A DNA stretch of 13,072 nucleotides from a virus (Duplodnaviria; Heunggongvirae; Uroviricota; Caudoviricetes), in the IMG/VR virus record IMGVR_UViG_2671180695_000008. One strand, written 5' to 3'. Positions 1 through 13,072 of the stretch are shown here, one piece after another. The notes below the pieces were generated by a model. That model ran no database searches and was not told the DNA's origin. It saw only the letters and a list, made by a program, of their open reading frames with translations. The translations under genes were made by a program, and so were the position numbers. Every line of letters starts with the position of its first letter. Position 1 is the stretch's first letter.

Positions 1-1
1 A

Positions 2-157
2 TTAACCGGTAAACGGGTGGTGTCTGTCCAGAAAGATGGTCGCAGAATTGAATATACGGCGGCTTCTCTGGATGAGCTTAACCGGGCGATCAATGATGCG
101 GAGTCGGTACTGGGGACAACCCGCCGTCGCCGTCGTCCGCTGGGAGTGAGGTTATGA
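2..157 (+). CDS. Head completion protein (lambda gpW-like), C-terminal part; 5' end lies outside the window
   Basis: Frame-2 translation ...GKRVVSVQKDGRRIEYTAASLDELNRAINDAESVLGTTRRRRRPLGVRL* resembles the C-terminus of lambda gpW as recalled (GKRVATVQKDGRRVEFTA...RRRG). Its stop overlaps the portal ATG (ATGA), and it sits directly upstream of the portal as in lambda W-B. Confidence 0.6.
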   Translation, partial: LTGKRVVSVQKDGRRIEYTAASLDELNRAINDAESVLGTTRRRRRPLGVRL

Positions 158-1026
158 AACGAACGCCTGTCCTGATTGATGTGAACGGCGTTCCGCTTCG
201 TGAGAGTCTCAGCTACAACGGGGGCGGTGCAGGATTTGGCGGGCAAATGGCGGAGTGGTTGCCACCGGCGCAGAGTGCCGATGCAGCCCTGCTGCCTGCG
301 TTGCGTCTGGGGAATGCCCGGGCAGATGATCTGGTGCGCAATAACGGGATAGCGGCCAATGCGGTGGCCCTGCATAAGGATCATATTGTCGGGCATATGT
401 TTCTGATCAGCTACCGTCCGAACTGGCGCTGGCTGGGGATGCGGGAGACTGCGGCAAAAAGTTTTGTCGATGAGGTGGAGGCGGCCTGGTCGGAATACGC
501 CGAAGGGATGTTTGGCGAGATCGACGTGGAAGAGAAACGCACGTTTACGGAATTTATTCGTGAAGGTGTGGGCGTTCATGCGTTTAACGGCGAAATCTTT
601 GTGCAGCCGGTCTGGGATACGGAGAGCACGCAACTGTTTCGTACGCGTTTTAAAGCCGTGAGTCCGAAACGGGTGGACACGCCAGGACACGGTATGGGGA
701 ACCGTTTTCTGCGGGCCGGTGTGGAGGTCGATCGATATGGTCGTGCCGTTGCGTACCATATCTGTGAGGATGATTTTCCGTTCTCCGGGAGTGGACGATG
801 GGAACGGATCCCGCGTGAACTTCCCACCGGGCGTCCGGCCATGCTGCATATTTTCGAGCCGGTGGAGGACGGGCAGACCCGTGGGGCTAATCAGTTTTAC
901 AGCGTCATGGAACGGCTGAAGATGCTCGATTCCCTGCAGGCAACACAGCTTCAGTCGGCCATAGTGAAGGCGATTTATGTCTATCATCTCACCGTAGTTG
1001 CCCGCATCGTTCGCCAACTCCACTGA
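154..1026 (+). pseudogene. Portal protein (lambda gpB-like), N-terminal fragment interrupted by an inserted element
   Basis: Translation matches the lambda gpB N-terminal half by recall (GNARADDLVRNNG, FEPVEDGQTRGAN, MLD.LQ.TQLQSAIVKA). Similarity ends after ...SAIVKAIY (codons through 978), followed by 16 unrelated codons (VYHLTVVARIVRQLH) and a stop. The remainder of the portal resumes at 11871. Confidence 0.85.
967..979. other. Candidate attL core (AAGGCGATTTATG) inside the portal coding sequence
   Basis: The same 13-mer with one mismatch (AAGGCGATGTATG) recurs at 11865..11877. Both copies are in the same codon phase of the portal frame, encoding K-A-(I/M)-Y. Confidence 0.65.
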
Positions 1027-1103: not shown

Positions 1104-1156
1104 GTGTATTGCAATGTGTATTGCAAATTGGCGATCGGGATGGGTGTGTATTGCAA
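1104..1156. repeat. Three direct copies of GTGTATTGCAA just upstream of int; candidate integrase arm-type binding sites
   Basis: Copies at 1104..1114, 1116..1126 and 1146..1156. Related copies lie at the opposite end of the element (11770..11790). Confidence 0.55.
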
Positions 1157-1174: not shown

Positions 1175-2416
1175 ATGGCTATTGAAAACAAACTCAGTGA
1201 CAAACTGTTAAAGAGTCTTGTCGGAAAACGGCAGGACAAACAAAAAACAATAGCGGATGGGCGCGGGTTGTCTGTGCGTGTAAGCATGGTTGGGGGGATC
1301 AGCTTTGTTTTTTACTATCGTCTTGGTGGCAGGGAATCCCCTCCGGTATGGCTTACACTTGGTCGCTATCCTGACATGTCTCTTGCAACGGCCAGGCGCA
1401 TGCGTGATCAGTGCCGTGAATGGCTGGCTGAAAATCTGGACCCCCGCAGGCAAATAAAACTTGCTGCCGAAAAAACTATGCAACCAGTGACCGTAAGGGA
1501 TGCGCTGTTTTACTGGTACGACAATCACGCCACAACAGCCAGAAAAGAGCATGAATATTTAATAAAACGATTTGAAAAGCATATCTTCCCCTATATCGGT
1601 GATATGGCTATAGAACAGTGCAAATTACACACATGGCTTACCGTCTTTGACAGGATCAAAAAAAATGCGCCTGTTATGTCTGGTGCAATTTTTCTTGATA
1701 TCAAACAGGCGTTGCGTTTTTGTCGCGTCAGGCAATACATCGCGTGCGATCCCTTTGGAGATATTAACGTAAGTTATGTCGGGCGCTCATCCGGTATAAG
1801 GGATCGCGTTCTTAATATCAATGAAACCGCTGATGTATGGTCTTATGCTTACGGTAATAATTTGCTAACTCTGTCATCAATATATAACCGAAGAATAATG
1901 GTTATCTGCCTGGTGTTTGGTTGCCGACAGCAGGAGGCGAGGCTATCCACCTGGGACGAATGGGATTTAAAAAACTGGGTATGGACAGTCCCAAAAGAGC
2001 ACAGCAAAAACAAGGAGGCTATAGTAAGGCCTGTTCCTGACGGAATAAAACAATGGATCGTTAATCTTTACGCAGAAACAAAAAATCGCGGTTATGTTGT
2101 CGGTTGTGCTTTGCAAAGGGCGACAATAACAGGGGCTGCAAACAGAATATGCAGGCGTCTTGGTCATGATACTAATGGCTTGTGGTGCATACATGATTTC
2201 AGGCGCACATTTTCCACTACGCTTAATGATATGGGGGCGGATCCTTATATTGTCGAACTTCTTTTAGGTCATAAAGTGAAAGGGGTTGCTGGTGTTTACA
2301 ATAAAAGCAGGCATATAAAGAAAAAACTTGAGGTGCTTAATATGTGGGTTAATTACCTTAATACGATAGCAGGATTTAACAACAACGTTATCGAGCTTAA
2401 TAAAGAGGTGGTGTGA
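1175..2416 (+). CDS. int: Tyrosine recombinase / integrase (P4-type)
   Basis: 413 aa ORF. N-terminal arm-binding-like region and a C-terminal catalytic region with HDFRRTF...LLGHK...GVAGVY motifs typical of phage integrases. First gene inside the insertion, next to the junction and arm-type repeats. Confidence 0.9.
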   Translation: MAIENKLSDKLLKSLVGKRQDKQKTIADGRGLSVRVSMVGGISFVFYYRLGGRESPPVWLTLGRYPDMSLATARRMRDQCREWLAENLDPRRQIKLAAEKTMQPVTVRDALFYWYDNHATTARKEHEYLIKRFEKHIFPYIGDMAIEQCKLHTWLTVFDRIKKNAPVMSGAIFLDIKQALRFCRVRQYIACDPFGDINVSYVGRSSGIRDRVLNINETADVWSYAYGNNLLTLSSIYNRRIMVICLVFGCRQQEARLSTWDEWDLKNWVWTVPKEHSKNKEAIVRPVPDGIKQWIVNLYAETKNRGYVVGCALQRATITGAANRICRRLGHDTNGLWCIHDFRRTFSTTLNDMGADPYIVELLLGHKVKGVAGVYNKSRHIKKKLEVLNMWVNYLNTIAGFNNNVIELNKEVV

Positions 2417-2417
2417 T

Positions 2418-2675
2418 ATGGCAATTTATTCTCTTGTTGATGAAAACGATTTGCGCACAATGAAGGACATTGATCGGTTCATTCGTGAAAAAGAGTGCAT
2501 AGCACTTACCACGCTGGCAAACTCAACACGCTGGAAAATGGAGCAGGCAGGTAAATTCCCGCGACGTATCAAGATCGGTGAACGTGCTGCAGGGTATCGA
2601 CTTTCAGAGGTTCAGGCATGGATCCGTGGTGAGTGGCATCCTGGATGGAAACCTGGAAAAACAAAACAGCAATAA
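2418..2675 (+). CDS. alpA: AlpA-family HTH regulator / excisionase-like protein
   Basis: 85 aa; motif ...ALTTLANSTRWKMEQAGKFPRRIKIGERAAGYRLSEVQAWI matches the AlpA (Phage_AlpA) fold pattern. Its start overlaps the int stop, and a strong SD (AGAGGTGG) precedes it. Confidence 0.85.
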   Translation: MAIYSLVDENDLRTMKDIDRFIREKECIALTTLANSTRWKMEQAGKFPRRIKIGERAAGYRLSEVQAWIRGEWHPGWKPGKTKQQ

Positions 2676-2731: not shown

Positions 2732-3310
2732 ATGAATAAAAATATTGCTGTGACGGGCAAGGGGTACGCTCGTCCAGTGAAAAAATTCTGCGATATTCGT
2801 GATCTCGTCGTTCTGCGCTTTGATAGTGTGAACGTTCGTGTGGTGTATCTGAACGGCGATCCGTGGTTTGTTGCAAAAGATGTTTGTGCTGCGCTGGAAC
2901 TAACCAATTCGCGTACGGCGTTGCAGATGCTTGATGATGATGAAAAGGGAGTAAATTTAACTTACACCCCAGGAGGAAATCAGAATATGAGAATTATCTC
3001 TGAGTCAGGTTTCTACAAACTAATAGCCCGCAGCCGCAAAGCAACGACGCCTGGCACATTTGCTCATCGTTTCAGTAACTGGGTATTCAGAAATGTGATA
3101 CCAGGTATCAGAAAAACGGGGACTTATGGTATCCCGTGGGGTGCATTACAGGATTTTTCCCGCCGTAAAGAGCAATATCAAATAAGTGCCAGCGAGAAGG
3201 GGAGGGAGCTACAGGCATGTAAGCGCAAAAAGCGTGAGCTGGAGGAAGAAGAAAAAACGCTGATACGTGAATATCAGCCTGAGTTTTACTTTGGTAACCG
3301 CATTCAGTGA
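2732..3310 (+). CDS. Bro-N domain protein (phage antirepressor-like)
   Basis: 192 aa; the segment VRVVYLNGDPWFVAKDVCAALELTNSRTALQMLDDDEKG...ISESGFYKLIARSRKATTPGTFAHRFSNWV has the Bro-N / AntA N-terminal pattern (D/E-PWFVAKDV...L.....A). The C-terminal part is charged and probably coiled. Confidence 0.7.
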   Translation: MNKNIAVTGKGYARPVKKFCDIRDLVVLRFDSVNVRVVYLNGDPWFVAKDVCAALELTNSRTALQMLDDDEKGVNLTYTPGGNQNMRIISESGFYKLIARSRKATTPGTFAHRFSNWVFRNVIPGIRKTGTYGIPWGALQDFSRRKEQYQISASEKGRELQACKRKKRELEEEEKTLIREYQPEFYFGNRIQ

Positions 3311-3340
3311 CAAAACAAAGGCGACCGCAAAAGGGTCGCC
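3311..3340 (-). terminator. Hairpin acting mainly as a minus-strand intrinsic terminator, between the convergent Bro and minus-strand genes
   Basis: Stem GGCGACC (3320..3326) pairs with GGTCGCC (3334..3340) around loop GCAAAAG. On the minus strand it is followed by TTTGTTTTGT (plus 3311..3319). No U-run follows on the plus strand. Confidence 0.6.
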
Positions 3341-3406
3341 AGTGGGAACAAGGGAAAACAAAAGCATCACCAACAATGCCACATTTGCGGCTGGTGGGCA
3401 ATGTGA

Positions 3407-3586
3407 TCAGTCAGATTTGGTTCGTTCCAAGGTTTGCAACGAGAGCTTTTTCCTGTGCTCTTTAAGGAATTTCTCAAGAGCAAACGAACAAGGTGCGAAT
3501 CTTTCTGATTCATGTTCATGCGCTATATTTTTGCGTCGTCTCTTACGAGTTGGTGATGGTGTTTTGGTTGATTCTGTGTCGCTCAT
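3407..3586 (-). CDS. Small basic hypothetical protein (59 aa), absent from the supplied ORF track
   Basis: Translated by hand from the minus strand: MSDTESTKTPSPTRKRRRKNIAHEHESERFAPCSFALEKFLKEHRKKLSLQTLERTKSD*. An AGGA lies 8 nt upstream of the ATG; it follows the 3644..3949 gene and precedes the minus-strand terminator. Confidence 0.45.
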   Translation of the reverse strand: MSDTESTKTPSPTRKRRRKNIAHEHESERFAPCSFALEKFLKEHRKKLSLQTLERTKSD

Positions 3587-3643
3587 GGTGCTGTCCTGTA
3601 AAGCAATGCGCCTGCGTTCCTCAAACTATGGCGCTGATATTGG

Positions 3644-3949
3644 CTATTCATGCTCTTTGACCTTGCGTCGCTGGAGTTCTTCACGCGCGACGGTGACGAG
3701 TTGCCCGATCTCCTCGGCTGCTTTGATGCCGATTTGTTCGACCTTAGCCAGGGCATCCAGTGACGACACAAGGGGATTTTCTCCGCTGCCTTCTGCTTGG
3801 CGGCGGGCTATTTCTCCGCGCATGGCGGTTACGATAAATCCGGCATTGCTTTCACCGTCCAGCTTAACGGATTCCATCCCTTGCATAACATCTAGTGGGA
3901 CTCTGACAGTTGTCAGTTGTGATTTTGCGTTTTTGTTAGCCGTTGCCAT
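3644..3949 (-). CDS. Hypothetical small regulator (possible DNA-binding protein), divergent from the rightward operon
   Basis: 101 aa with a strong SD (TAGGAGTTTCAGAA-ATG on the minus strand). It is transcribed divergently from a palindromic operator region. No family is recognised with confidence; a ribbon-helix-helix-like N-terminus is possible but unverified. Confidence 0.55.
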   Translation of the reverse strand: MATANKNAKSQLTTVRVPLDVMQGMESVKLDGESNAGFIVTAMRGEIARRQAEGSGENPLVSSLDALAKVEQIGIKAAEEIGQLVTVAREELQRRKVKEHE

Positions 3950-3970
3950 TTCTGAAACTCCTAATCATCG

Positions 3971-4048
3971 GTGTGTTTCAGTATACACAAAAAAAGAAAT
4001 ACAAAAAGCCTTGACGTGTGTTTCATGCGCTCATAACATGAAACACAC
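3971..4048. promoter_or_regulatory. Divergent control region with a 12-bp perfect inverted repeat, a third half-site and a candidate rightward promoter
   Basis: GTGTGTTTCATG (4016..4027) and its reverse complement CATGAAACACAC (4037..4048) are separated by 9 bp. A further GTGTGTTTCA half-site lies at 3971..3980. TTGACG (4011..4016), a 17-bp spacer and TAACAT (4034..4039) overlap the palindrome. Confidence 0.55.
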
Positions 4049-4139
4049 CGAAAGGATTGTTGAAATACAAAGAGCAACGCCCCGCAGTGCTGGGAACACA
4101 TACGGGGCGTCTAACCAACAACGTAAACTAGGAGCCGTT

Positions 4140-4337
4140 ATGGTTGCTGTAAATCATATACCACACCTTGTACACACACAAACGGCCTTTGTGTGGCGTT
4201 TTCTGGCACTGAGTGCCGGAGAATCTCAAATCATCCACGTAACCGCCTGGACGGAACGCGAAGCGCGTAGCCGTTGCCCGTCCGGTTGTGTTGCTGTATT
4301 CGCTGCAAAAATCCGCCAGGGAGTGAGTCATGCTTAA
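4140..4337 (+). CDS. Hypothetical small protein (65 aa), possible first gene of the rightward operon
   Basis: ATG preceded by AGGAG at the correct spacing. It shares a frame with a long, compositionally odd ORF (3267..4337) that is otherwise rejected, so coding status is uncertain. Confidence 0.35.
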   Translation: MVAVNHIPHLVHTQTAFVWRFLALSAGESQIIHVTAWTEREARSRCPSGCVAVFAAKIRQGVSHA

Positions 4338-4945: not shown

Positions 4946-5245
4946 ATGGAAATGAAAAATTCTGGCTTTATTGCCAGCGGCCCCGCTCGACCTGAATTTA
5001 TGAACGGCGATATTTACCGCGATAAATACGGCGGCACGGTAACGATTAAAGGCGTGGCAGAACGGCGCATCACTTACCGCCGTGAGGGGTATAGCTATGA
5101 CTGCGTGATGCCTGTTTATCAGTTCCGGCGTGATTTTTCCCTGGTATATGCCGCACCCCGCAGTAAGCCCATCAGCAGGGAAAAAGCGTGGGGAAATATC
5201 CAGAAAATGAAAACCATGATTAACGGATTCAGAGGTAAAAAATGA
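4946..5245 (+). CDS. Hypothetical protein (99 aa)
   Basis: SD GAGGA upstream. Its stop overlaps the primase-helicase start (ATGA), placing it in the replication operon. Confidence 0.55.
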   Translation: MEMKNSGFIASGPARPEFMNGDIYRDKYGGTVTIKGVAERRITYRREGYSYDCVMPVYQFRRDFSLVYAAPRSKPISREKAWGNIQKMKTMINGFRGKK

Positions 5246-6996
5246 AACTGGCACCGAACGTAAAACAGCAGTCACGCGGCATAAAACACAAAGGAACAGA
5301 AGTCATTATTTTTGCGGGTAGTGATGCCTGGGCACACGCGAAACAATGGCAGGAACATGATGCGCGTATGGCCGGAGATAATGAGCCTCCTGTGTGGCTT
5401 GGGGAGCAGCAGCTATCCGAACTGGATAATCTGCAAATTGTGCCGGAAGGCCGAAAATCAGCACGCATATACAGGGCCGGATATCTTGCGCCTGTAATGA
5501 TAAAGGCGATTGGTCAGAAGCTGGCGGCAGCAGGCGTACAGGATGCAAATTTTTATCCTGAGGGTATGCACGGCCAGGAGGTGCAGAACTGGCGCGAATA
5601 TCTGGCCCGTGAACGCCAGAATCTTTCTGATGGTCTGGTCATTGAGCTTCCGGTAAAGCAAAAGGCGCAACTTTCGCAGATGGCGGACAGTGAGCGCGCG
5701 CAGTTGCTTGCCGATCGCTTTGATGGCGTTTGCGTACATCCTGAAAGTGAAATCGTTCACGTATGGCGCGGCGGGGTATGGTGTCCGGTCAGCACAATGG
5801 AACTTAGCCGCGAAATGGTGGCGATCTATTCAGAGCACAGGGCCACTTTCAGCAAGCGCGTAATCAATAACGCCGTGGAAGCGTTAAAAGTTATTGCCGA
5901 ACCAATGGGCGAGCCGTCTGGCGATTTGCTGCCGTTCGCCAATGGTGCGCTTGACCTGAAAACGGGGGAATTTTCCCCGCACACGCCGGAGAACTGGATC
6001 ACCACGCACAACGGCATTGAGTACACGCCACCAGCACCAGGGGAGAACATCCGCGATAACGCGCCAAACTTTCATAAATGGCTTGAGCACGCAGCCGGAA
6101 AAGACCCGCGCAAGATGATGCGTATATGTGCCGCGCTGTACATGATTATGGCGAACCGGTACGACTGGCAGATGTTTATTGAGGCCACCGGAGACGGCGG
6201 GAGCGGTAAAAGTACATTCACACACATAGCCAGCCTTCTGGCAGGGAAACAGAACACGGTAAGCGCTGAAATGACATCGCTTGATGATGCTGGTGGACGT
6301 GCGCAGGTTGTCGGGAGTCGTCTTATCGTCCTGGCTGACCAGCCGAAATATACAGGCGAAGGAACGGGCATCAAGAAAATCACAGGCGGCGACCCCGTGG
6401 AAATTAACCCGAAATATGAAAAGCGTTTCACGGCGGTAATCAGGGCGGTGGTGCTGGCGACCAACAACAACCCGATGATATTCACCGAACGGGCCGGAGG
6501 TGTGGCACGTCGTCGCGTGATTTTCCGTTTCGACAATATCGTCAGTGAGGCCGAAAAAGACAGGGAGCTACCGGAAAAGATTGCGGCTGAAATCCCCGTT
6601 ATTATCCGCCGATTGCTGGCGAACTTTACCGACCCTGAGAAGGCACGGGCTTTACTACTGGAACAGCGTGACGGTGATGAAGCACTGGCAATAAAGCAAC
6701 AGACGGATCCGGTTATTGAGTTTTGCCAGTTCCTGAATTTTCTGGAGGAAGCGCGCGGCCTGATGATGGGTGGCGGTGGTGATTCAGTGAAGTACACGAC
6801 CAGGAACAGCCTTTACCGCGTCTATCTGGCGTTTATGGCATACGCGGGCAGGAGCAAACCGCTAAACGTGGCTGAGTTCAGCAAGGCCATGAAGCCAGCG
6901 GCGAAAGTTTACGGGCATGAATATATTACGCGAAAAGTTAAGGGAGTAACGCAGACCAACGCAATTACAACAGACGATTGCGACGCGTTTTTATAA
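5242..6996 (+). CDS. Replication protein: P4-alpha / D5-type primase-helicase (SF3 P-loop NTPase)
   Basis: 584 aa. Walker A motif ATGDGGSGKST, a D5_N-like segment LPFANGALDLKTGEF and a following NTPase core resemble the C-terminal helicase region of P4-family primases. The N-terminal ~150 aa are not confidently assigned. An iteron array follows immediately. Confidence 0.85.
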   Translation: MKLAPNVKQQSRGIKHKGTEVIIFAGSDAWAHAKQWQEHDARMAGDNEPPVWLGEQQLSELDNLQIVPEGRKSARIYRAGYLAPVMIKAIGQKLAAAGVQDANFYPEGMHGQEVQNWREYLARERQNLSDGLVIELPVKQKAQLSQMADSERAQLLADRFDGVCVHPESEIVHVWRGGVWCPVSTMELSREMVAIYSEHRATFSKRVINNAVEALKVIAEPMGEPSGDLLPFANGALDLKTGEFSPHTPENWITTHNGIEYTPPAPGENIRDNAPNFHKWLEHAAGKDPRKMMRICAALYMIMANRYDWQMFIEATGDGGSGKSTFTHIASLLAGKQNTVSAEMTSLDDAGGRAQVVGSRLIVLADQPKYTGEGTGIKKITGGDPVEINPKYEKRFTAVIRAVVLATNNNPMIFTERAGGVARRRVIFRFDNIVSEAEKDRELPEKIAAEIPVIIRRLLANFTDPEKARALLLEQRDGDEALAIKQQTDPVIEFCQFLNFLEEARGLMMGGGGDSVKYTTRNSLYRVYLAFMAYAGRSKPLNVAEFSKAMKPAAKVYGHEYITRKVKGVTQTNAITTDDCDAFL

Positions 6997-7280: not shown

Positions 7281-7595
7281 ATGCGCATACATAAAAATCA
7301 CTTAACAAACATGCCAGCCGAAAACATGAATCAGGGGCGACAAATGACCAAAATTCGCAGAGACAGAACACAGGCAAAATATAAAGCGTTAGACATGACA
7401 GAGCTTTCCTTAAAGGTGGCAATCAAAGCGATAGACCACCACACACGGGCAGGATACGCGAAGGAACATCCCGACCTGATAAGCGCATTCATGACCACAG
7501 CAGCGGCAAACTTTGCCACGCTGACAGAACGGGAGATTGCCGAAGCGGAACAGGTGACAACCATCAATGTTAAAACCGGAGAGCAGACAGCATGA
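7281..7595 (+). CDS. Hypothetical protein (104 aa)
   Basis: G-rich SD (GAGGGGGGG) upstream. Its stop overlaps the next start (ATGA). The start codon is uncertain because internal Met codons exist. Confidence 0.5.
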   Translation: MRIHKNHLTNMPAENMNQGRQMTKIRRDRTQAKYKALDMTELSLKVAIKAIDHHTRAGYAKEHPDLISAFMTTAAANFATLTEREIAEAEQVTTINVKTGEQTA

Positions 7596-8014
7596 CAGCA
7601 CAGATAGCGGCTTACGGGCGGCTGGTGGCTGACCCGCAGTTAAAGACCACCAGCAAAGGGACACAAATGGCGATGGCGAGTATGGCGGTTCCCCTGCCGT
7701 GCAGCCAGGCAGATGACGGAACGGCGACGATGTGGTTATCCGTCCTGGCGTTTGGCAGACAGGCCGACGCACTGGCAAAACACCACAAAGGCGAACTGGT
7801 GAGCGTGGCGGGTAACATGCAGGTAAGCCAGTGGACAGGCCAGAACGGCGAAACGCGGCGGGGCTGGCAGGTTATCGCAGACAGCGTAATCAGTGCGCGA
7901 ACGGCGCGACCGGGCGGCAAAAAAGGCCAGCAGGGGCAGGCCACTGACGCACTGAACAGGGCAAAACAACAGTCGGGGAATGATGATCCGTACGGCGATA
8001 ATATACCGTTTTAA
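7592..8014 (+). CDS. ssb: Single-stranded DNA-binding protein-like (OB fold, C-terminal ...NIPF tail)
   Basis: 140 aa with the pattern GRLVADPQL...G...A.......W.SV.AFG..A..LAK..KGELV.V.G......W....G..R.....ADSV, then a Gly/Gln-rich linker ending DDPYGDNIPF. This resembles the SSB OB core and its acidic ...DDDIPF protein-interaction tail. Confidence 0.7.
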   Translation: MTAQIAAYGRLVADPQLKTTSKGTQMAMASMAVPLPCSQADDGTATMWLSVLAFGRQADALAKHHKGELVSVAGNMQVSQWTGQNGETRRGWQVIADSVISARTARPGGKKGQQGQATDALNRAKQQSGNDDPYGDNIPF

Positions 8015-8225: not shown

Positions 8226-9272
8226 ATGAGTATGGTTGATTTATATTCGCCTACACAGCTTGTGCAGGTGGCTAATGCTGAAGATGTGCAAAAAAAATTA
8301 AATGCGTTGTTTACCAGTTTGTTTTTCACTCGCTCGGTAATGTTTGAATCGAGAGACATTATTCTTGATACGATCGACGATCCAAATATCCCGATCGCGG
8401 CGTTTTGCTCTCCTATGGTGGGCAGTAAAGTTTCACGAGATGAGGGATACGAATCAAAAACAATTCGTCCAGGTTATATGAAGCCGAAAAGCAGCATTGA
8501 TCCAAATAAGTTAGCTGTGCGCCCTGCTGGTGTGTCACCTGAGCAATACAATGCTTTTGGGGCGCGTAATATTAAAGTTAAACAGGCGATTGTAAATCAG
8601 GCTAAAGCTATTCGTGCACGTATTGAATGGCTTGCTGTTCAGGCAATCACAACGGGGAAAAATATCATTGAGGGCGATGGTATTGAACGTTATGAGCTGG
8701 ACTGGAATATAAAACCACAAAATATCATCACTCAGTCTGGCGGTACTGAGTGGTCAGGTAAGGATAAAGAAACTTTTGATCCAAATGATGATATTGAGAG
8801 CTACGCAGAATTTAGTGAGGGCGTCACTAATATCATCATTATGGGTGGTAATGTATGGAAGAAATACCGTTCATTCAGAGCGATAAAAGAGGCTTTGGAT
8901 ACCCGTCGTGGTTCTAATTCCGAACTGGAAACGGCCCTTAAAGACCTTGGTGATTCGGTGAGTTTTAAAGGGTATATGGGCGATGTTGCGATTGTTGTTT
9001 ACAGCGGGCGTTATACCGACGAGGACGGAACAGAAAAACATTTCCTTGATCCTGATTTGATGGTGCTTGGCAATACGGCTCTTCAGGGGATTGTCGCCTA
9101 TGGCGGTATTCAGGATCCGGAGCTAATCCGAATGGGGCTGACTAAAGCCGAACTTGCACCGAAAAACTATATTGTGCCTGGTGATCCGGCTATTGAATAT
9201 GTGCAGACACATTCAGCACCACAGCCAATACCGGCCCGCATCAATCGTTTTGTTACCGTTCGCATTGGCTAA
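8226..9272 (+). CDS. Major capsid protein (lambda gpE-like)
   Basis: Motifs NIITQSGGTEWS, DTRRGSNSELETA, GDVAIVVYSG and MVLGNT match lambda E as recalled. The chosen start MSMVDLYSPTQL parallels lambda MSMYTTAQL and has SD AGAGGA; the ORF track's upstream start at 8145 is less likely. Confidence 0.85.
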   Translation: MSMVDLYSPTQLVQVANAEDVQKKLNALFTSLFFTRSVMFESRDIILDTIDDPNIPIAAFCSPMVGSKVSRDEGYESKTIRPGYMKPKSSIDPNKLAVRPAGVSPEQYNAFGARNIKVKQAIVNQAKAIRARIEWLAVQAITTGKNIIEGDGIERYELDWNIKPQNIITQSGGTEWSGKDKETFDPNDDIESYAEFSEGVTNIIIMGGNVWKKYRSFRAIKEALDTRRGSNSELETALKDLGDSVSFKGYMGDVAIVVYSGRYTDEDGTEKHFLDPDLMVLGNTALQGIVAYGGIQDPELIRMGLTKAELAPKNYIVPGDPAIEYVQTHSAPQPIPARINRFVTVRIG

Positions 9273-9281
9273 GGGGGAGCA

Positions 9282-9623
9282 ATGGCTACTCATTACACTG
9301 AACTCATGGCTGGCACTGAAGCACTGGTGACTACGCTGGGGATATTTTCAGCTAATAAAGGGGTAATTCCTGCATTTACGCCACTGATGCAGGAAGATGC
9401 AACAGGTGCACTGGTGGTATGGGATGGTTCGAGCGTAGGTAAAGCGGTTTATGTTTCCGCTGTACAAATCGACACAGCGAAAAAAACACAGGCACAGGTT
9501 TATAAGACAGGTGTTTTAAATGTTGATGCTCTGAACTGGCCTGAGTCTGTAAAAGAACTGTCGGCAAAGGTTGCCGCGTTTGTTGGCTCAGGTATTTCTG
9601 TTCAGCCGCTGGCTCGTGTGTAA
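9282..9623 (+). CDS. Head decoration protein (lambda gpD-like)
   Basis: 113 aa; the pattern TPLM....G.LV.WDG...G.AV.......T.....YK.G......L.WPE matches lambda D as recalled. SD GGGGGAG upstream. It follows the capsid gene, the reverse of the lambda D-E order. Confidence 0.75.
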   Translation: MATHYTELMAGTEALVTTLGIFSANKGVIPAFTPLMQEDATGALVVWDGSSVGKAVYVSAVQIDTAKKTQAQVYKTGVLNVDALNWPESVKELSAKVAAFVGSGISVQPLARV

Positions 9624-9634
9624 AGGGGGATACA

Positions 9635-10018
9635 ATGCAGAATCATTACAATGACCTTAAGCCAATTGCCGAAATGATGTATCCGGATCCAGCAGTAGAG
9701 GAATTAAAGGCTATTGCTGACAAAATGCGTTTAAGTGAACGCCTTGTTGATATGAATCAGGTGATGGAACTTACTACCCTTAGCCGTCGCACATTGCTAA
9801 ACCTTGAGGCTCGCGGAGAGTTCCCCGAACGCGTACAGGTTACGGAAGGGCGTAAGGCCTGGTATTTAAGTGAAGTGATCGACTGGATAAACAATATTCC
9901 TCGATCTTCTGAATATTGCCGCGTACCTGTCCCAAAAAAGCCAGATGCGGCGCTATGCCTCAAGATTGAGCGTGTACGTCGCAATGCACGGGATGGTCGC
10001 TATAAGTTGATTGGTTGA
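9635..10018 (+). CDS. AlpA/MerR-like HTH domain protein (second AlpA-family member)
   Basis: 127 aa; the segment VDMNQVMELTTLSRRTLLNLEARGEFPERVQVTEGRKAWYLSEVIDWI fits the AlpA-type HTH pattern. It has an N-terminal extension and a basic C-terminus, a GGGGGA SD upstream, and lies immediately upstream of the cos site. Confidence 0.6.
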   Translation: MQNHYNDLKPIAEMMYPDPAVEELKAIADKMRLSERLVDMNQVMELTTLSRRTLLNLEARGEFPERVQVTEGRKAWYLSEVIDWINNIPRSSEYCRVPVPKKPDAALCLKIERVRRNARDGRYKLIG

Positions 10019-10029
10019 TGAAATTAGGG

Positions 10030-10108
10030 CCCGTTCTGGCTGGCGGGTCCTTTCCGGCGATCCGGTAGGCTACGGGGCGGCGACCTCGCGGGTTTTCGCT
10101 ATTTATGA
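10030..10108. other. Lambda-type cos site (cosQ-proximal sequence plus cosN with the 12-nt cohesive end GGGCGGCGACCT)
   Basis: 10072..10108 ACGGGGCGGCGACCTCGCGGGTTTTCGCTATTTATGA is identical to the recalled lambda cosN / left-end sequence (cohesive end at 10075..10086). The upstream GGGTCCTTTCCGGCGATCCGGTAGGCTACG closely matches the recalled lambda right-end sequence. Downstream cosB-like sequence has diverged, and a Nu1-like gene follows. Confidence 0.85.
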
Positions 10109-10219
10109 GCCTTTTTCGGGTGCTGGTGGTGGTTTTGTTGTTCGCTCTATCTCTATGAATAAAAAGGAAAAGATAAAGCCAATACACCAACCTGAAACAT
10201 TACTTAAGTGGGGATATTG

Positions 10220-10762
10220 ATGAAATCGCACCTGATGAACAAAAAAAACATGGCGCAAAGCTGCCATGTAAGTGCGACAGCGTTCGACAAGTGGGGAGTG
10301 ACTCCCGTTGAACGTAAAGGCCGCGAGGCGTTTTATGATGTTGCCAGCGTAATAGACAATCGGGTTAGCAATGCAATTAACCAGATTACAGACGACAAAG
10401 GCGAGATTGATGATGATGAACTCCTACGAGTCAGGATCAGATTGCTGACAGCACAGGCAGAGGCGCAGGAGCTTAAAAACGAGCGCGAACGCGGCGACGT
10501 TATTGATACCGCGTTTTGTATATACGTGCTTTCAAAATTGGCGAGTCAGATTTCTTCAATCATGGACAGCCTGCCGCTTGCCATGACAAGGAAGTTTCCC
10601 GACATGAAGCCGTCTATGCTGGATGGACTGAAAAAAGAAGTTATCAGAGCCTGTAACGCATGCGCAAAACTTGACGAAAACATACCGCTGATGCTGTCCG
10701 ATTATCTGATGGAAACTGCCGGAAACGTACCGGATAAGTTGCAGCCGAATAAAGATAAGTAA
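10220..10762 (+). CDS. Terminase small subunit (lambda Nu1-like)
   Basis: Matches lambda Nu1 by recall (RLTRAQADAQELKNARD...ETAFC.FVLSRIAGEIASILDGLPL...RFPE compared with RLLTAQAEAQELKNERERGDVIDTAFCIYVLSKLASQISSIMDSLPLAMTRKFPD). Start is uncertain: ATG at 10220 (GGGGA SD) is chosen, with alternatives GTG 10208 and ATG 10235. It sits downstream of cos as in lambda. Confidence 0.85.
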   Translation: MKSHLMNKKNMAQSCHVSATAFDKWGVTPVERKGREAFYDVASVIDNRVSNAINQITDDKGEIDDDELLRVRIRLLTAQAEAQELKNERERGDVIDTAFCIYVLSKLASQISSIMDSLPLAMTRKFPDMKPSMLDGLKKEVIRACNACAKLDENIPLMLSDYLMETAGNVPDKLQPNKDK

Positions 10763-10773
10763 CGTAGTACGCT

Positions 10774-11055
10774 ATGACTGAATCCGAAATACTGCGATTA
10801 ATCCGCCGTGCTTGTGGAATCAGCAAGCAGCATGACGAACAGGCCACGCAGCCGGACAGCGTGACCGCAGATAATTATGTGCGTGTAGTGGCTGAGGTGA
10901 TGCGCCGTGACGGTATTGAGCTTAACGGCGTGGATATGCGCAACATACGAACAAGAGTCCTTGAGTTGCTGGCATATCGTCGCCGTTCTCAACAACGGAG
11001 GGAGAGCGCGAAAAACACTTACCAGTGGAAGAAGCCGGAACGATTGCGGCGGTAA
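10774..11055 (+). CDS. Hypothetical basic protein (93 aa) in the position where lambda encodes the large terminase
   Basis: ORF starts 11 nt after the TerS stop and is Arg-rich. No convincing family match; no obvious SD, so possibly translationally coupled. Confidence 0.45.
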   Translation: MTESEILRLIRRACGISKQHDEQATQPDSVTADNYVRVVAEVMRRDGIELNGVDMRNIRTRVLELLAYRRRSQQRRESAKNTYQWKKPERLRR

Positions 11056-11070
11056 CTTGCTGATATTCCC

Positions 11071-11094
11071 GATAACGCAAAATTGCGCTGGCTG
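11071..11094. repeat. Direct repeat GATAACGC-N5-TTGCGCTGGCTG (copy 1; copy 2 at 11257..11280)
   Basis: The two 24-bp copies differ at 3 positions and lie 186 bp apart in the non-coding right arm. Each is followed by a TTGCA/TGCAA-type near-palindrome. Confidence 0.5.
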
Positions 11095-11306
11095 ACTTGT
11101 TGCATTGCAAAAAGTTAAGCAGGAAGGCACGGCCTGTAAGATGGGATGCAGTAAGTAGTTCAAGGCTACCTTGTGCTGGCACGCACAGTTAAGCCGTCGG
11201 TGCTGGATATCCCCCACTGGGGGAAAAGCTGGCTACATCCCTCACATCTGAGGACTGATAACGCGACATTGCGCTGGCTGGCAAAGTGCAAAATTGCACG
11301 ATGGCC

Positions 11307-11468
11307 TAACCCATTGATTATTTCGAAAACCTGCAATGCAGGAAATCGGGGAAGTAAGCCTAAGCTATTGATTGTTTCGAAAACCCCCATTGGGGGATGT
11401 CGGGAAAGTAAGACTAACCCATTGATTCTTCCACAATCCTCAATTTGAGGAGGCCGGAACGTCTACAT
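11307..11468. repeat. Tandem ~54-bp repeat (3 units) each containing a 5-bp-stem, 3-nt-loop hairpin with covarying stems; candidate structured RNA or recognition array
   Basis: Units 11307..11360, 11361..11414 and 11415..11468 share TAA(C/G)C(C/T)ATTGATT...TTCGAAAAC and CGGG.AAGTAAG flanks. Internal hairpins are CCTGC-AAT-GCAGG (11330..11342), CCCCC-ATT-GGGGG (11384..11396) and CCTCA-ATT-TGAGG (11438..11450). The third unit is more diverged. Confidence 0.6.
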
Positions 11469-11769
11469 AGCTGCATCGCCGTAATGATGATTCAGCCCAC
11501 CAGCCAAATCAGCACAGCAACGACAGAATAGCCCGACACAGAAAAACCACGAATATGGGGTTTTTGTTATGACATGGTCATGATGACCACTCATACAAAA
11601 CAGGTAAAGCCCACCAGCCTGATTAAAGGTTAACCGGAAAAAAGCCAGGTATCCAATCTCGATATGGGGATCCCTATATCGACATTAACGCCCACTAAAA
11701 CTGTGCATATATGCATAGAAAAAGCATCCACCAGCTTTATGACGGATGCCGCTCATCTTATAAATAATC

Positions 11770-11790
11770 GTGTATTGCAGTGTGTATTGC
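11770..11790. repeat. Two direct copies of GTGTATTGC(A) near the right junction; candidate integrase arm-type sites
   Basis: GTGTATTGCA at 11770..11779 and GTGTATTGC at 11782..11790, in the same orientation as the three copies beside int. An AT-rich tract lies between them and the att core. Confidence 0.5.
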
Positions 11791-11864
11791 GACTCCTTTA
11801 AACGATAGGTCTGAGCATTCGTAATGTACTGTTTTTAAATTTTATTTTTTCCTGTCTTTTCATA

Positions 11865-11877
11865 AAGGCGATGTATG
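11865..11877. other. Candidate attR core (AAGGCGATGTATG)
   Basis: Matches 967..979 at 12 of 13 positions. Portal homology resumes here (IKAMYAATIE...). Confidence 0.65.
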
Positions 11878-12644
11878 CAGCGACGATTGAAAGTGACCTT
11901 GATACCGAAAAGGCCTTTGAATATATCGCCGGTGCGCCGCAGGGGCAGAAGGATAATCCGCTTATTAATATTCTGGATAAGTTCTCCACCTGGTATGACA
12001 CGAATAGCGTGACGCTGGGTGGTGTCAAAATTCCGCACCTTTTCCCCGGTGATGATCTGAAACTTCAGACCGCGCAGGATTCAGACAATGGATTTTCGGC
12101 GCTTGAACAGGCGCTGCTGCGGTATATCGCCGCCGGTCTTGGCGTTTCCTACGAACAGTTGTCCCGTGATTACTCGAAGGTCAGTTATTCAAGTGCCCGC
12201 GCATCCGCCAATGAGTCGTGGCGCTATTTTATGGGGCGGCGAAAATTTATTGCGTCCCGGCTGGCCACGCAGATGTTTTCCTGCTGGCTGGAAGAGGCAC
12301 TTCTTCGGGGGATTATTCGTCCGCCACGGGCACGTTTTGATTTTTATCAGGCGCGATCAGCCTGGTCACGGGCTGAGTGGATTGGAGCCGGAAGAATGGC
12401 CATTGACGGGCTCAAGGAGGTTCAGGAATCAGTGATGCGCATTGAGGCCGGACTGAGCACGTATGAGAAAGAGCTGGCGCTGATGGGCGAGGATTATCAG
12501 GACATTTTCCGCCAGCAGGTCAGGGAATCTGCAGAGCGGGAAAAAGCCGGACTCTCACGTCCGGTGTGGATAGCGCAGGCGTATCAGCAGAAGATAGCGG
12601 AGAGTCGCAGGCCGGAAGAGGAGACAACACCACGTGAGACGTAA
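11871..12644 (+). pseudogene. Portal protein (lambda gpB-like), C-terminal fragment downstream of the insertion
   Basis: Translation MYAATIESDLDTEKAFEYI...LGGVKIPHLFPGDDLKLQTAQDSDNGFSALEQALLRYIAAGLGVSYEQLSRDYSKVSYSSARASANESWRYFMGRRKF...WIGAGRMAIDGLKEVQESVMRIEAGLSTYEKE matches the lambda gpB C-terminal half by recall. The ORF begins at a fortuitous in-frame ATG, and similarity starts at about 11862. Confidence 0.85.
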
Positions 12645-13072
12645 TCTTTCACACATTATTGCCGCAGCATTCAATGAACCGCTGCTTCTGGAGCCCGCCT
12701 ATGCGCGGGTTTTCTTTTGCGCGCTCGGGCGCGAGATGGGGGCAGCAAGTCTTTCGGTACCACAACAGCAGGTACAGCTTGATGCTCCCGGAATGCTGGC
12801 TGAAACGGACGAGTACATGGCCGGAGGTAAACGACCGGCCCGTGTTTACCGGGTGGTGAACGGTATTGCGGTACTGCCGGTGACCGGCACGCTGGTGCAC
12901 CGGCTGGGGGGGATGCGGCCATTTTCCGGAATGACTGGCTATGACGGCATTGTCGCCTGTCTTCAGCAGGCAATGGCAGATAGCCAGGTGCGGGGCATAC
13001 TGCTGGACATTGACAGTCCGGGCGGGCAGGCCGCCGGCGCGTTTGACTGCGCTGACATGATTTACCGCCTCC
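12634..13072 (+). CDS. Head maturation protease / scaffold-processing protein (lambda gpC-like, S49 family), N-terminal part; 3' end outside the window
   Basis: Hand translation from GTG 12634: (M)RRNLSHIIAAAFNEPLLLEPAYARVFFCALG...RVYRVVNGIAVLPVTGTLVHRLGGMRPFSGMTGYDGIVACLQQAMADSQVRGILLDIDSPGG matches lambda C as recalled (AFNEPLMLEPAYARVFF...GIAVLPVSGTL...GMTGY...LLD.D.PGG). Its start overlaps the portal stop as in lambda B-C. Confidence 0.8.
   Translation, partial: MRRNLSHIIAAAFNEPLLLEPAYARVFFCALGREMGAASLSVPQQQVQLDAPGMLAETDEYMAGGKRPARVYRVVNGIAVLPVTGTLVHRLGGMRPFSGMTGYDGIVACLQQAMADSQVRGILLDIDSPGGQAAGAFDCADMIYRL

What the first reader, a model, noticed from the sequence alone, without database searches (positions are those of the whole stretch)
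10220..11055. Element encodes a Nu1-like small terminase but no large terminase; a 93-aa basic ORF occupies the terL position
In lambda, Nu1 is followed by the overlapping A gene. Here terS is followed by a short Arg-rich ORF and then ~800 bp of non-coding sequence. The element's TerS may recruit helper gpA to its own cos and bias packaging toward the element. The 93-aa protein may take part in that interaction, which is speculation.
Basis: inference. Interest (0 to 1): 0.7.

Follow-up and report, generated by a model that had tools for sequence, protein, structure and literature searches.

The report
Phage satellite's small-terminase packaging module
This is the DNA-packaging end of an already catalogued phage satellite lodged inside a lambda-like prophage's portal gene; carrying its own small terminase and cos site but no large terminase is the standard design of such satellites, and the 93-residue gene behind it is a conserved satellite gene of unknown role, not a stand-in for the large terminase.

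Summary
An intact Nu1-type small terminase gene (10220-10762) is followed 11 bases later by a 93-residue basic ORF (10774-11055), then 815 bases without a credible gene. No large terminase lies in the element. The context makes this ordinary. The window is a lambdoid prophage head region whose portal gene is split by a 10.9-kb phage-inducible chromosomal island (PICI). That island has an integrase, AlpA, a primase, SSB, a capsid-E homologue, a decoration-protein homologue, a cos site and terS. The same element in E. coli APEC O2-211 is already listed in the literature as helper-embedded PICI "B_Phage_portal_2_241". A small terminase without a large one is a defining core component of PICIs. 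The 93-residue protein is not tied to terS. It is the last gene of many enterobacterial PICIs, whether they carry TerS, Rpp, neither, or a full terminase. Its EcCICFT073 homologue lies in a segment replaced by a marker in the strains the authors use for transfer assays, and it did not inhibit lambda. Its function remains unknown.

The parts
154..974 (+). 5' part of the host prophage's lambda-family portal gene (gpB cognate), ending in the attL core AAGGCGAT (967-974)
   Evidence: Pfam Phage_portal_2 profile positions 2-242. It is 97% identical to the CFT073 prophage 4 portal gene. attL, attR and attB were compared.
1104..1156 (+). Three copies of GTGTATTGCAA between attL and int, presumed arm-type integrase sites
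   Evidence: The window has 5 matches against 0.35 expected by chance, all in the same orientation and flanking the two att cores. The HE-PICI paper reports a doubled motif in attP regions.
1175..2416 (+). P4-type tyrosine integrase of the satellite
   Evidence: Pfam Arm-DNA-bind_3, Phage_int_M and Phage_integrase. The protein is identical (WP_000963723.1) in EC28 and APEC O2-211.
2418..2675 (+). AlpA-type regulator/excisionase gene
   Evidence: Annotated as a helix-turn-helix regulator in RefSeq; it occupies the position of alpA in PICIs.
5242..6996 (+). D5_N/DUF5906 primase-helicase of the satellite
   Evidence: Pfam D5_N, DUF5906 and Pox_D5.
7592..8014 (+). SSB
   Evidence: Pfam SSB at 5.5e-16.
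8232..9272 (+). Lambda-E-family major capsid protein homologue of the satellite
   Evidence: Pfam Phage_cap_E at 3.8e-41 and PHROG 29. The start is taken from RefSeq.
9282..9623 (+). Lambda-D-family head decoration protein homologue
   Evidence: Pfam HDPD at 4e-15.
9635..10018 (+). Second AlpA-family gene, directly upstream of cos
   Evidence: Pfam Phage_AlpA at 1.3e-8 and PHROG 2790.
10043..10108 (+). cosQ-cosN-I2 block, including the 12-nt cohesive-end sequence GGGCGGCGACCT at 10075-10086
   Evidence: It is 94-96% identical to the cos region of lambda and relatives, and one phage record annotates the match as 'cos site'. Alignment with lambda, 21-type and PICI cos sites is; position is.
10109..10219 (+). 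Element-specific cosB. It contains the invariant block TGGTGGTGGTTTTGTT (10124-10139, bp 50-65 from the nick, the R3-equivalent position) and CAAyACACCAACCTGAA (10180-10196)
   Evidence: It is unlike lambda, 21 and Rpp-type cosB but nearly invariant in 25 distinct TerS-type islands whose TerS proteins diverge to 78%. The R3 position follows PMC9026076.
10220..10762 (+). terS: full-length Nu1-family small terminase, 180 aa
10774..11055 (+). p93: conserved terminal gene of enterobacterial PICIs and capsid-forming PICIs (PHROG 1561), function unknown
11056..11864 (.). Non-coding right arm of the satellite. It holds GATAACGCAAAATTGCGCTGGCTG twice (11071, 11257). It also holds three 54-bp tandem repeats (11304-11465), each with TAACCCATTGATT and a short hairpin, and a patch (11599-11700) conserved in other PICIs.
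   Evidence: No Rfam match.
11770..11792 (+). Two further copies of the GTGTATTGCA arm-type motif
11865..12644 (+). attR core AAGGCGAT (11865-11872) and the 3' part of the interrupted portal gene
   Evidence: Pfam Phage_portal_2 profile positions 238-354; att comparison.

Best explanation
The finding covers the packaging module of a TerS-type, cos-packaged phage-inducible chromosomal island. This island is integrated in, and co-oriented with, the portal gene of a lambdoid prophage, so it is a helper-embedded PICI at site B:Phage_portal_2:241. Shown here: the satellite carries cosQ and cosN that match lambda, its own cosB, and directly downstream a full-length Nu1-family TerS. The N-terminal DNA-binding region of that TerS has diverged from lambda and 21, while its central and C-terminal regions remain Nu1-like. 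There is no TerL in the satellite. In related genomes the helper's terS, terL and W genes lie immediately upstream of the split portal gene. Inferred: after helper induction the satellite excises, which restores the portal gene, and then replicates. Its TerS binds its own cosB and uses its C-terminal region to bring the helper's large terminase (gpA) to the lambda-type cosN. Satellite concatemers are then cut and packaged into helper-made heads. One unit is 10.9 kb, so about four units (43.6 kb, 90% of lambda) would fill a lambda-sized head. The 93-aa protein is not part of the terminase. It is the conserved last gene of enterobacterial PICIs and capsid-forming PICIs. It is predicted to be a small basic helical protein with an invariant C-terminal tail Y-x-W-K-K-P-E-R-L-R-R. 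Its homologue lies within a segment that can be replaced by a marker without preventing transfer of EcCICFT073. My low-confidence guess is that it is an accessory nucleic-acid-binding or regulatory factor belonging to the attP/int side of the circular element.
For: Identity of the element. The portal gene is split at Pfam position about 241 with an AAGGCGAT core. The same element (99.9% identical) in APEC O2-211 is listed in the supplement of PMC10111431 as Eco4623.11.B_Phage_portal_2_241 with identity block aaggcgat. Gene content matches the PICI core set of integrase, AlpA, primase, capsid gene and TerS.

Packaging anatomy. The cos block matches lambda. cosB is specific to TerS-type islands and is conserved across 25 variants. 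TerS aligns over its full length with lambda Nu1 and with a 21-type TerS. Among PICI TerS proteins the DNA-binding region is the most conserved part (40/55 invariant) and the presumed TerL-binding region the most variable (17/42 invariant). pN/pS is 0.26. No TerL lies in the window. The helper TerL sits just upstream in EC28 and APEC O2-211. The near-identical element occurs in two different prophage types, which argues for recent mobility.

p93. Its upstream neighbour varies: TerS 45, TerL 10, Rpp 7, a 137-aa protein 7, protease-capsid 5. The TerL cases are full capsid-forming PICIs. One identical p93 protein is paired with TerS or Rpp at several att sites. Primer mapping shows that pBAD18-c1505 carries the whole p93 homologue and that c1504-07::cat deletes it. 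Only c1503 inhibited lambda. The deletion derivative reaches 1e6-1e7 TFU/ml.
Against: No experiment in the searchable literature shows that a Nu1-type PICI TerS works with helper gpA. The two TerS-encoding E. coli islands tested in PMC6092414 were not transferred after mitomycin induction of their resident prophages. The TerS C-terminal region is only 19/42 identical to lambda's and 16/43 to the 21-type's. The same satellite sits in prophages whose TerL N-termini are only 28/60 identical, so compatibility with at least one of them is uncertain. Whether packaging uses multimers or small heads is unknown. For p93 the structure model is only moderate (pLDDT 77), and no fold or family match constrains its function.
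Confidence: 0.7

Rival explanations
1. The satellite TerS works mainly as an interference factor. It forms mixed oligomers with the helper's TerS, as Rpp does, and so diverts the helper terminase from phage cos to satellite cos. In this case it still needs helper TerS rather than replacing it.
For: terS occupies exactly the position that rpp holds in Rpp-type islands, directly after cos and before p93. The central self-association region is 30-34/70 identical to helper TerS proteins. Rpp-TerS heterocomplexes are the established mechanism in sister islands.
Against: TerS and Rpp share no detectable sequence similarity. Unlike Rpp, this protein retains the C-terminal region that PMC9026076 assigns to TerL binding, so it has what it needs to act alone.
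Confidence: 0.17
2. One reading: the 93-aa basic protein is an adaptor or modulator of the TerS-gpA interaction, filling the place of the missing TerL.
For: It lies 11 nt after terS and is probably co-transcribed. In every island type examined it sits directly downstream of a cos site or a packaging gene.
Against: The same protein follows Rpp, follows a complete TerS/TerL/HNH set in capsid-forming PICIs, or follows only a cos-like site with no TerS or Rpp at all. Its EcCICFT073 homologue (c1505) did not inhibit lambda, and its deletion is used routinely in transfer assays. The family is absent from bona fide phages: one match in 50,697 records, and that one lies beside an integrase.
Confidence: 0.06
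3. terS is simply a helper late gene captured passively by the embedded satellite, as proposed for some late genes in helper-embedded PICIs. It would then have no role in redirecting packaging.
For: Tommasini et al. report capture of helper late-gene clusters by helper-embedded PICIs.
Against: The gene is only 36-42% identical to the TerS of either host prophage type, depending on the pair and on which columns are counted. It is about 80% identical to TerS of chromosomal PICIs at unrelated att sites, and those share its cosB. It is under purifying selection.
Confidence: 0.03

Closest known systems
Helper-embedded PICI (HE-PICI/HES), site group B:Phage_portal_2:241 (Tommasini, Mageeney and Williams, NAR Genom Bioinform 2023, PMC10111431)
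   Same: It is the same element. It is 99.9% identical to the catalogued Eco4623.11.B_Phage_portal_2_241 of APEC O2-211, with the same identity block aaggcgat, the same orientation within the portal gene and the same doubled motif near att.
   Different: That paper's model element 11capE lacks terS. The paper's main text does not discuss TerS-type packaging or the 93-aa gene. The copy in this window sits in a 21-type rather than a lambda-type prophage.
EcCICFT073 and other Rpp-type E. coli PICIs (Fillol-Salom 2018 and 2019; Murialdo and Feiss 2022)
   Same: The gene order is the same: int, alpA, primase, SSB, capsid-E homologue, decoration homologue, cos, packaging-specificity gene, p93, att. 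cosQ and cosN are lambda-like and cosB is island-specific.
   Different: A full-length Nu1-type TerS stands where the shorter Rpp stands, with no sequence similarity between the two. The cosB sequence differs. EcCICFT073 is chromosomal, next to phoQ, and is not embedded in a prophage.
SaPI small terminase (TerS of SaPI1/SaPIbov1, with Ppi) in Staphylococcus
   Same: The logic is the same: the satellite encodes only the specificity subunit and borrows the helper's TerL (described in PMC6092414).
   Different: SaPIs of this type use headful (pac) packaging and an unrelated TerS family. Here packaging would be cos-dependent with a Nu1-type protein. I did not compare p93 with Ppi by sequence.
Capsid-forming PICIs (cf-PICIs)
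   Same: They share the terminal p93 gene (83% identical in L043) and the downstream TAACCC(A/G)TTGAT motif.
   Different: cf-PICIs carry an HK97-type capsid, protease, portal, connectors, HNH, a Terminase_4 TerS and a TerL. None of these is present in this element.
Phage lambda cos-Nu1-A
   Same: The 12-nt cohesive-end sequence is identical, cosQ and I2 are conserved, terS follows cos directly, and the Nu1 family fold regions are present.
   Different: cosN to the start codon is 145 bp rather than 190 bp, with no recognisable lambda R3/I1/R2/R1. TerS has a 13-residue deletion in the linker and a 13-residue C-terminal extension. No overlapping A gene follows.

Membership tests
Gram-negative PICI (core set as in SatelliteFinder, PMC10085698) | Integrase at one end | tested here: met
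   Gene at 1175-2416, with Pfam integrase domains.
Gram-negative PICI | AlpA-type regulator next to the integrase | tested here: met
   Gene at 2418-2675, annotated as an HTH regulator. A second AlpA-family gene lies at 9635-10018.
Gram-negative PICI | Primase-replicase module | tested here: met
   D5_N/DUF5906 protein at 5242-6996 and SSB at 7592-8014.
Gram-negative PICI | Capsid-morphogenesis gene and a small terminase, with no tail, lysis, portal or TerL genes; size about 10-15 kb | tested here: met
   A capsid-E homologue, a decoration homologue and terS are present. No TerL was found. The ORF list shows no other large genes. The element is 10.9 kb core to core.
Gram-negative PICI | Induction by, and high-frequency transfer with, a helper phage | not testable with these tools
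   There is only indirect evidence of mobility: a 99.9% identical element sits in two different prophage types.
Helper-embedded PICI (HE-PICI) | [quoted passage not shown] | tested here: met
   The portal gene is split at Pfam position about 241. All major satellite genes are on the + strand, like the portal gene.
Helper-embedded PICI (HE-PICI) | Integrase of the HE-PICI clade with the site-specific identity block | tested here: met
   The integrase protein is identical to that of the catalogued element in CP006834.2, and the identity block aaggcgat is identical. I did not build a phylogeny.
Lambda Nu1-family small terminase | Nu1 central and C-terminal regions (self-association and gpA-binding part) | tested here: met
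   Pfam Phage_Nu1 profile positions 79-162 of 164 at 3e-24; alignment.
Lambda Nu1-family small terminase | N-terminal winged helix-turn-helix that binds cosB | tested here: inconclusive
   PHROG 57 covers aa 5-180, and key positions align with lambda Nu1 (N7, K8, K9, W25, P29, K33, G34). However, Pfam does not match aa 1-68 and no PDB sequence match was found. I did not model the TerS structure.
Lambda Nu1-family small terminase | Physical binding to the large terminase and to cosB | not testable with these tools
   This needs biochemistry or genetics.
Rpp (redirecting phage packaging protein) | Sequence or structural homology to RppA/RppC, and lack of the TerS C-terminal TerL-binding region | tested here: not met
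   BLASTP found no alignment with an Rpp that itself matches PDB 6hlk at 4e-32. This protein is full length.
Capsid-forming PICI | Own portal, protease, head-tail connectors, HNH and TerL | tested here: not met
   None of these is found in the element. Compare L043, which has all of them.

The most novel reading that the evidence does not exclude
The 93-aa protein, together with the repeat and hairpin array downstream of it, forms a conserved and so far undescribed module shared by TerS-type, Rpp-type and capsid-forming PICIs. The array comprises TAACCC(A/G)TTGAT motifs and short stem-loops whose stems differ in sequence but stay paired. One possible reading is a small nucleic-acid-binding regulator acting next to attP/int. 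A second possibility is that this TerS can recruit large terminases of both the lambda and the 21 specificity classes, because the identical satellite lives in both prophage types.
Probability: 0.15. Interest if true: 0.5.

Novelty: already known. Interest (0 to 1): 0.2.

Why it matters
It matters little as a discovery. The element type, this very element and the 'TerS without TerL' layout are all published. Two modest points remain open. First, no experiment in the literature I could search shows how Nu1-type PICI small terminases cooperate with helper gpA; only the Rpp route has been worked out. This element has a clear TerS/cosB pair and lives inside two terminase specificity classes, so it would be a convenient test case. 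Second, the 93-aa gene is among the most widely conserved satellite-specific genes in enterobacterial PICIs and capsid-forming PICIs, and it has no assigned function.

Tried and rejected
TerL search. tblastn of three TerL types against the window gave only noise.

Function of p93. These searches found nothing significant:
- Pfam, NCBIfam and PADLOC.
- PDB sequence search with the single protein and with a profile. The best profile hit was a homeodomain at E 0.4-0.6, kept only as a weak lead.
- An exhaustive HMMER search of 1.84 billion representatives. The family is narrow: 39 hits, mostly fragments of the same family.

RNA genes in 11056-11870. Rfam at E up to 1 found nothing. The region folds better than shuffles as RNA (z -3.95), but that follows from its DNA palindromes and I did not treat it as evidence for an RNA gene.

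The repeats as replication iterons. The motifs do not recur near the primase gene, and in EcCICFT073 the equivalent region is deleted without loss of transfer.

The palindrome GCGCAAAATTGCGC as a protein operator. In other islands a hairpin of different sequence occupies the same place just after the stop codon, which suggests a 3' stem-loop instead.

TerS as an Rpp relative. Rejected, with no similarity found.

TerS as a recent capture from the helper. Rejected.

Lambda Nu1 sequence. It was later replaced by the NC_001416 sequence, with the same result.

Full report
**What is in the window.** The ORF list and family scans show a lambda-family portal gene in two pieces, at 154-~974 and 11871-12644. 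Between them lies a co-oriented integrase-bearing element. Its genes in order are:
- a P4-type integrase (1175-2416)
- an AlpA-type regulator (2418-2675)
- a Bro-N protein
- small ORFs
- a D5-type primase (5242-6996)
- SSB (7592-8014)
- a lambda-E-family capsid homologue (8232-9272)
- a lambda-D-family decoration homologue (9282-9623)
- a second AlpA-family gene (9635-10018)
- the small terminase gene (10220-10762)
- the 93-aa ORF (10774-11055)
- 815 bp without a gene

In E. coli EC28 the same element (99.9% identical) sits in a complete lambdoid prophage. That prophage's terS, terL and W genes lie directly upstream of the split portal gene, and its protease, decoration, capsid and tail genes lie downstream.

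**Check of the observation.**
- terS matches Pfam Phage_Nu1 (3e-24) and PHROG 57 over its full length. It aligns end to end with lambda Nu1.
- terS is under purifying selection, with pN/pS of 0.26. It exists as 25 distinct intact variants in related loci and occurs in 767 of 5426 complete E. coli genomes.
- The 93-aa ORF is basic, with 17 Arg and pI 10.6. It is conserved as a 93-aa protein in 977 clusters, with pN/pS of 0.28-0.45.
- No TerL homologue is present in the window.

**What the element is.** The two portal fragments end and begin at Pfam Phage_portal_2 positions 242 and 238. Comparing attL and attR with the intact portal gene of CFT073 prophage 4 gives an 8-bp crossover core, AAGGCGAT, and a unit length of 10.9 kb. 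Five copies of GTGTATTGCAA flank the cores, against 0.35 expected by chance.

Tommasini, Mageeney and Williams described satellites integrated in late genes of lambdoid prophages, which they call helper-embedded PICIs. Their catalogue includes a portal site group B:Phage_portal_2:241. Their supplementary table lists CP006834.2/1830842-1841738 as Eco4623.11.B_Phage_portal_2_241, with identity block 'aaggcgat'. I fetched that region of APEC O2-211. It is the same element, with identical integrase, TerS and 93-aa proteins. The element is therefore already catalogued.

[quoted passage not shown] They also note accessory genes 'after the terS homolog'. Fillol-Salom et al. 2018 had already noted E. 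coli PICIs that encode TerS.

**Packaging anatomy.**
- Bases 10043-10108 are 94-96% identical to the cos region of lambda and its relatives.
- The 12-nt cohesive-end sequence GGGCGGCGACCT lies at 10075-10086, which is 145 bp before the terS start codon.
- Aligned with lambda, with the 21-type prophage of EC28 and with other islands, cosQ, cosN and the I2 stretch are conserved. Everything after TATTTATGA differs from lambda, from the 21 type and from Rpp-type islands, but is shared with TerS-type islands at other att sites.
- In 25 distinct TerS-type loci this cosB is almost invariant, even where TerS has diverged to 78%. The invariant parts include TGGTGGTGGTTTTGTT at bp 50-65 from the nick. 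That is the position where Murialdo and Feiss place the R3-equivalent of PICI cos sites.
- Among PICI TerS proteins the N-terminal 55 residues are the most conserved (40/55 invariant). Residues 126-167 align with the part of Nu1 that Murialdo and Feiss assign to TerL binding, and they are the most variable (17/42 invariant).

This is the pattern expected of a specificity subunit locked to its own cosB and adapting to different helper large terminases. The binding steps themselves are inferred, not shown.

**Which helper.** The identical satellite lives in two prophage types. In APEC O2-211 the prophage terminase is lambda's (Nu1 179/181, gpA 638/641 identical). In EC28 it is the 21 type, with a TerS identical to that of CFT073 prophage 4, the known helper of EcCICFT073. 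The first 60 residues of the two TerL types are only 28/60 identical. The window's own flanks are of the 21 type. Among 13 viral-contig copies with enough flank, 11 are in the lambda-type portal context and 2 in the 21-type context. The satellite TerS C-terminal region is slightly closer to lambda's (19/42) than to the 21 type's (16/43). Sequence alone cannot say whether it works with both.

**The 93-aa protein.**
- Context look-ups of two common variants show it as the last gene before attR in several island types. It follows TerS, follows a 144-aa protein that matches RppC (PDB 6hlk, 4e-32), or follows a protease-capsid fusion with neither TerS nor Rpp.
- In 80 viral-contig loci the upstream neighbour is TerS in 45, a Terminase_1-type TerL in 10, Rpp in 7, a 137-aa protein in 7, a protease-capsid fusion in 5 and other or undetermined in 6.
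- A TerL-type locus (L043) is a complete capsid-forming PICI. It has an HK97-type capsid, protease, portal, connectors, HNH, TerS and TerL, and p93 starts 17 bp after TerL.
- A shorter 65-aa homologue in a Klebsiella record likewise follows a TerL and precedes a P4-type integrase.

So the gene does not replace TerL and is not specific to TerS.

I mapped the published primers onto CFT073. The plasmid called pBAD18-c1505 carries the whole EcCICFT073 homologue in the sense orientation. The marker replacement c1504-07::cat removes the homologue together with the island's second, inverted cos and 355 bp of the downstream repeats. In that study only c1503 (rppA) inhibited lambda. The replacement derivative is the strain used for transfer assays, reaching 1e6-1e7 transducing units per ml. 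The homologue is therefore dispensable for induction, packaging, transfer and integration in the laboratory, and it is not an interference factor against lambda.

The AlphaFold2 model has three helices, with a confident helical hairpin over residues 28-81. The alignment shows an invariant tail with Y83, W85, P88, R90, L91, R92 and R93. No fold, family or defence-system match was found. The family is confined to satellites. My best guess is weak: an accessory nucleic-acid-binding or regulatory protein that belongs with the attP/int side of the circular element. It is always the gene next to attP, and it travels with a similar downstream repeat region in all island types.

**The 815-bp non-coding stretch.**
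- It contains GATAACGCAAAATTGCGCTGGCTG twice.
- It contains three 54-bp tandem repeats (11304-11465). Each has TAACCCATTGATT and a 5-bp-stem hairpin whose stem sequence differs between copies.
- It contains a patch conserved in other PICIs (11599-11700) and two arm-type motifs next to attR.
- The TAACCC(A/G)TTGAT motif recurs downstream of p93 in all island types.
- Rfam finds nothing.
- Part of the stretch is the P arm of attP. The role of the rest is unexplained. By the EcCICFT073 deletion, the equivalent region is not needed for transfer.

**Verdict.** The hijack interpretation is reasonable but is the standard, published view of PICI small terminases. The suggestion about the 93-aa protein is not supported. 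The element itself is already catalogued. What is still missing from the literature I could search is direct evidence for how a Nu1-type PICI TerS cooperates with helper gpA, and any function for the 93-aa gene.

Noticed in passing
window 11304-11465 (also 11211-11223): There are three 54-bp tandem repeats. Each has TAACCCATTGATT plus a hairpin with a 5-bp stem and 3-nt loop, and the stem sequence differs between copies (CCTGC/GCAGG, CCCCC/GGGGG, CCTCA/TGAGG). A fourth such hairpin lies upstream. The motif recurs downstream of the 93-aa gene in TerS-, Rpp-, TerL- and protease-capsid-type islands. Its function is unknown.
   Followed up: partly
window 10011-10220: A 69-aa ORF matches PHROG 11159 at 5e-49 but lies exactly over cosQ, cosN and cosB. 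The PHROG family is probably built from translated cos DNA rather than from a real protein.
   Followed up: partly
window 1-974 and 11865-13072; L001, L018, L019-L034: The identical satellite (99.9%) is embedded in prophages with lambda-type head and terminase genes (APEC O2-211; 11 of 13 viral-contig copies). It is also embedded in prophages with 21-type genes (EC28, this window, 2 of 13). Both portal types carry GTGAAGGCGATGTATGC.
   Followed up: yes
L021 (viral contig), region upstream of terS: A TerS-type island has a changed cohesive-end sequence (GGGCGTCAGGCG in place of GGGCGGCGACCT), while cosQ, I2 and cosB stay conserved.
   Followed up: no
L017 8095-8373 (EcCICFT073 in CFT073): The second cos of EcCICFT073 is in inverted orientation and sits just upstream of its 93-aa gene. 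The original ORF c1506 was cloned from the opposite strand over the same region (the clone spans most of the 93-aa gene and runs beyond it).
   Followed up: partly
window 9635-10018: A second AlpA-family gene lies directly upstream of cos. In many related islands this slot holds a 137-aa protein with no Pfam match instead.
   Followed up: no
window 3267-4337: A 356-aa ORF overlaps a minus-strand YlcI/YnfO gene (3644-3949) and the icd-like gene, and is not annotated in RefSeq. It is probably spurious.
   Followed up: no
window 10220-10762 versus L008, L050, L054 and others: PICI small terminases fall into about three C-terminal sequence classes (KLDENIPLMLSDY, RLDENLPQILADY, RVADNLPQILADY), while the N-terminal domain and cosB stay nearly constant. 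This may reflect adaptation to different helper large terminases.
   Followed up: partly
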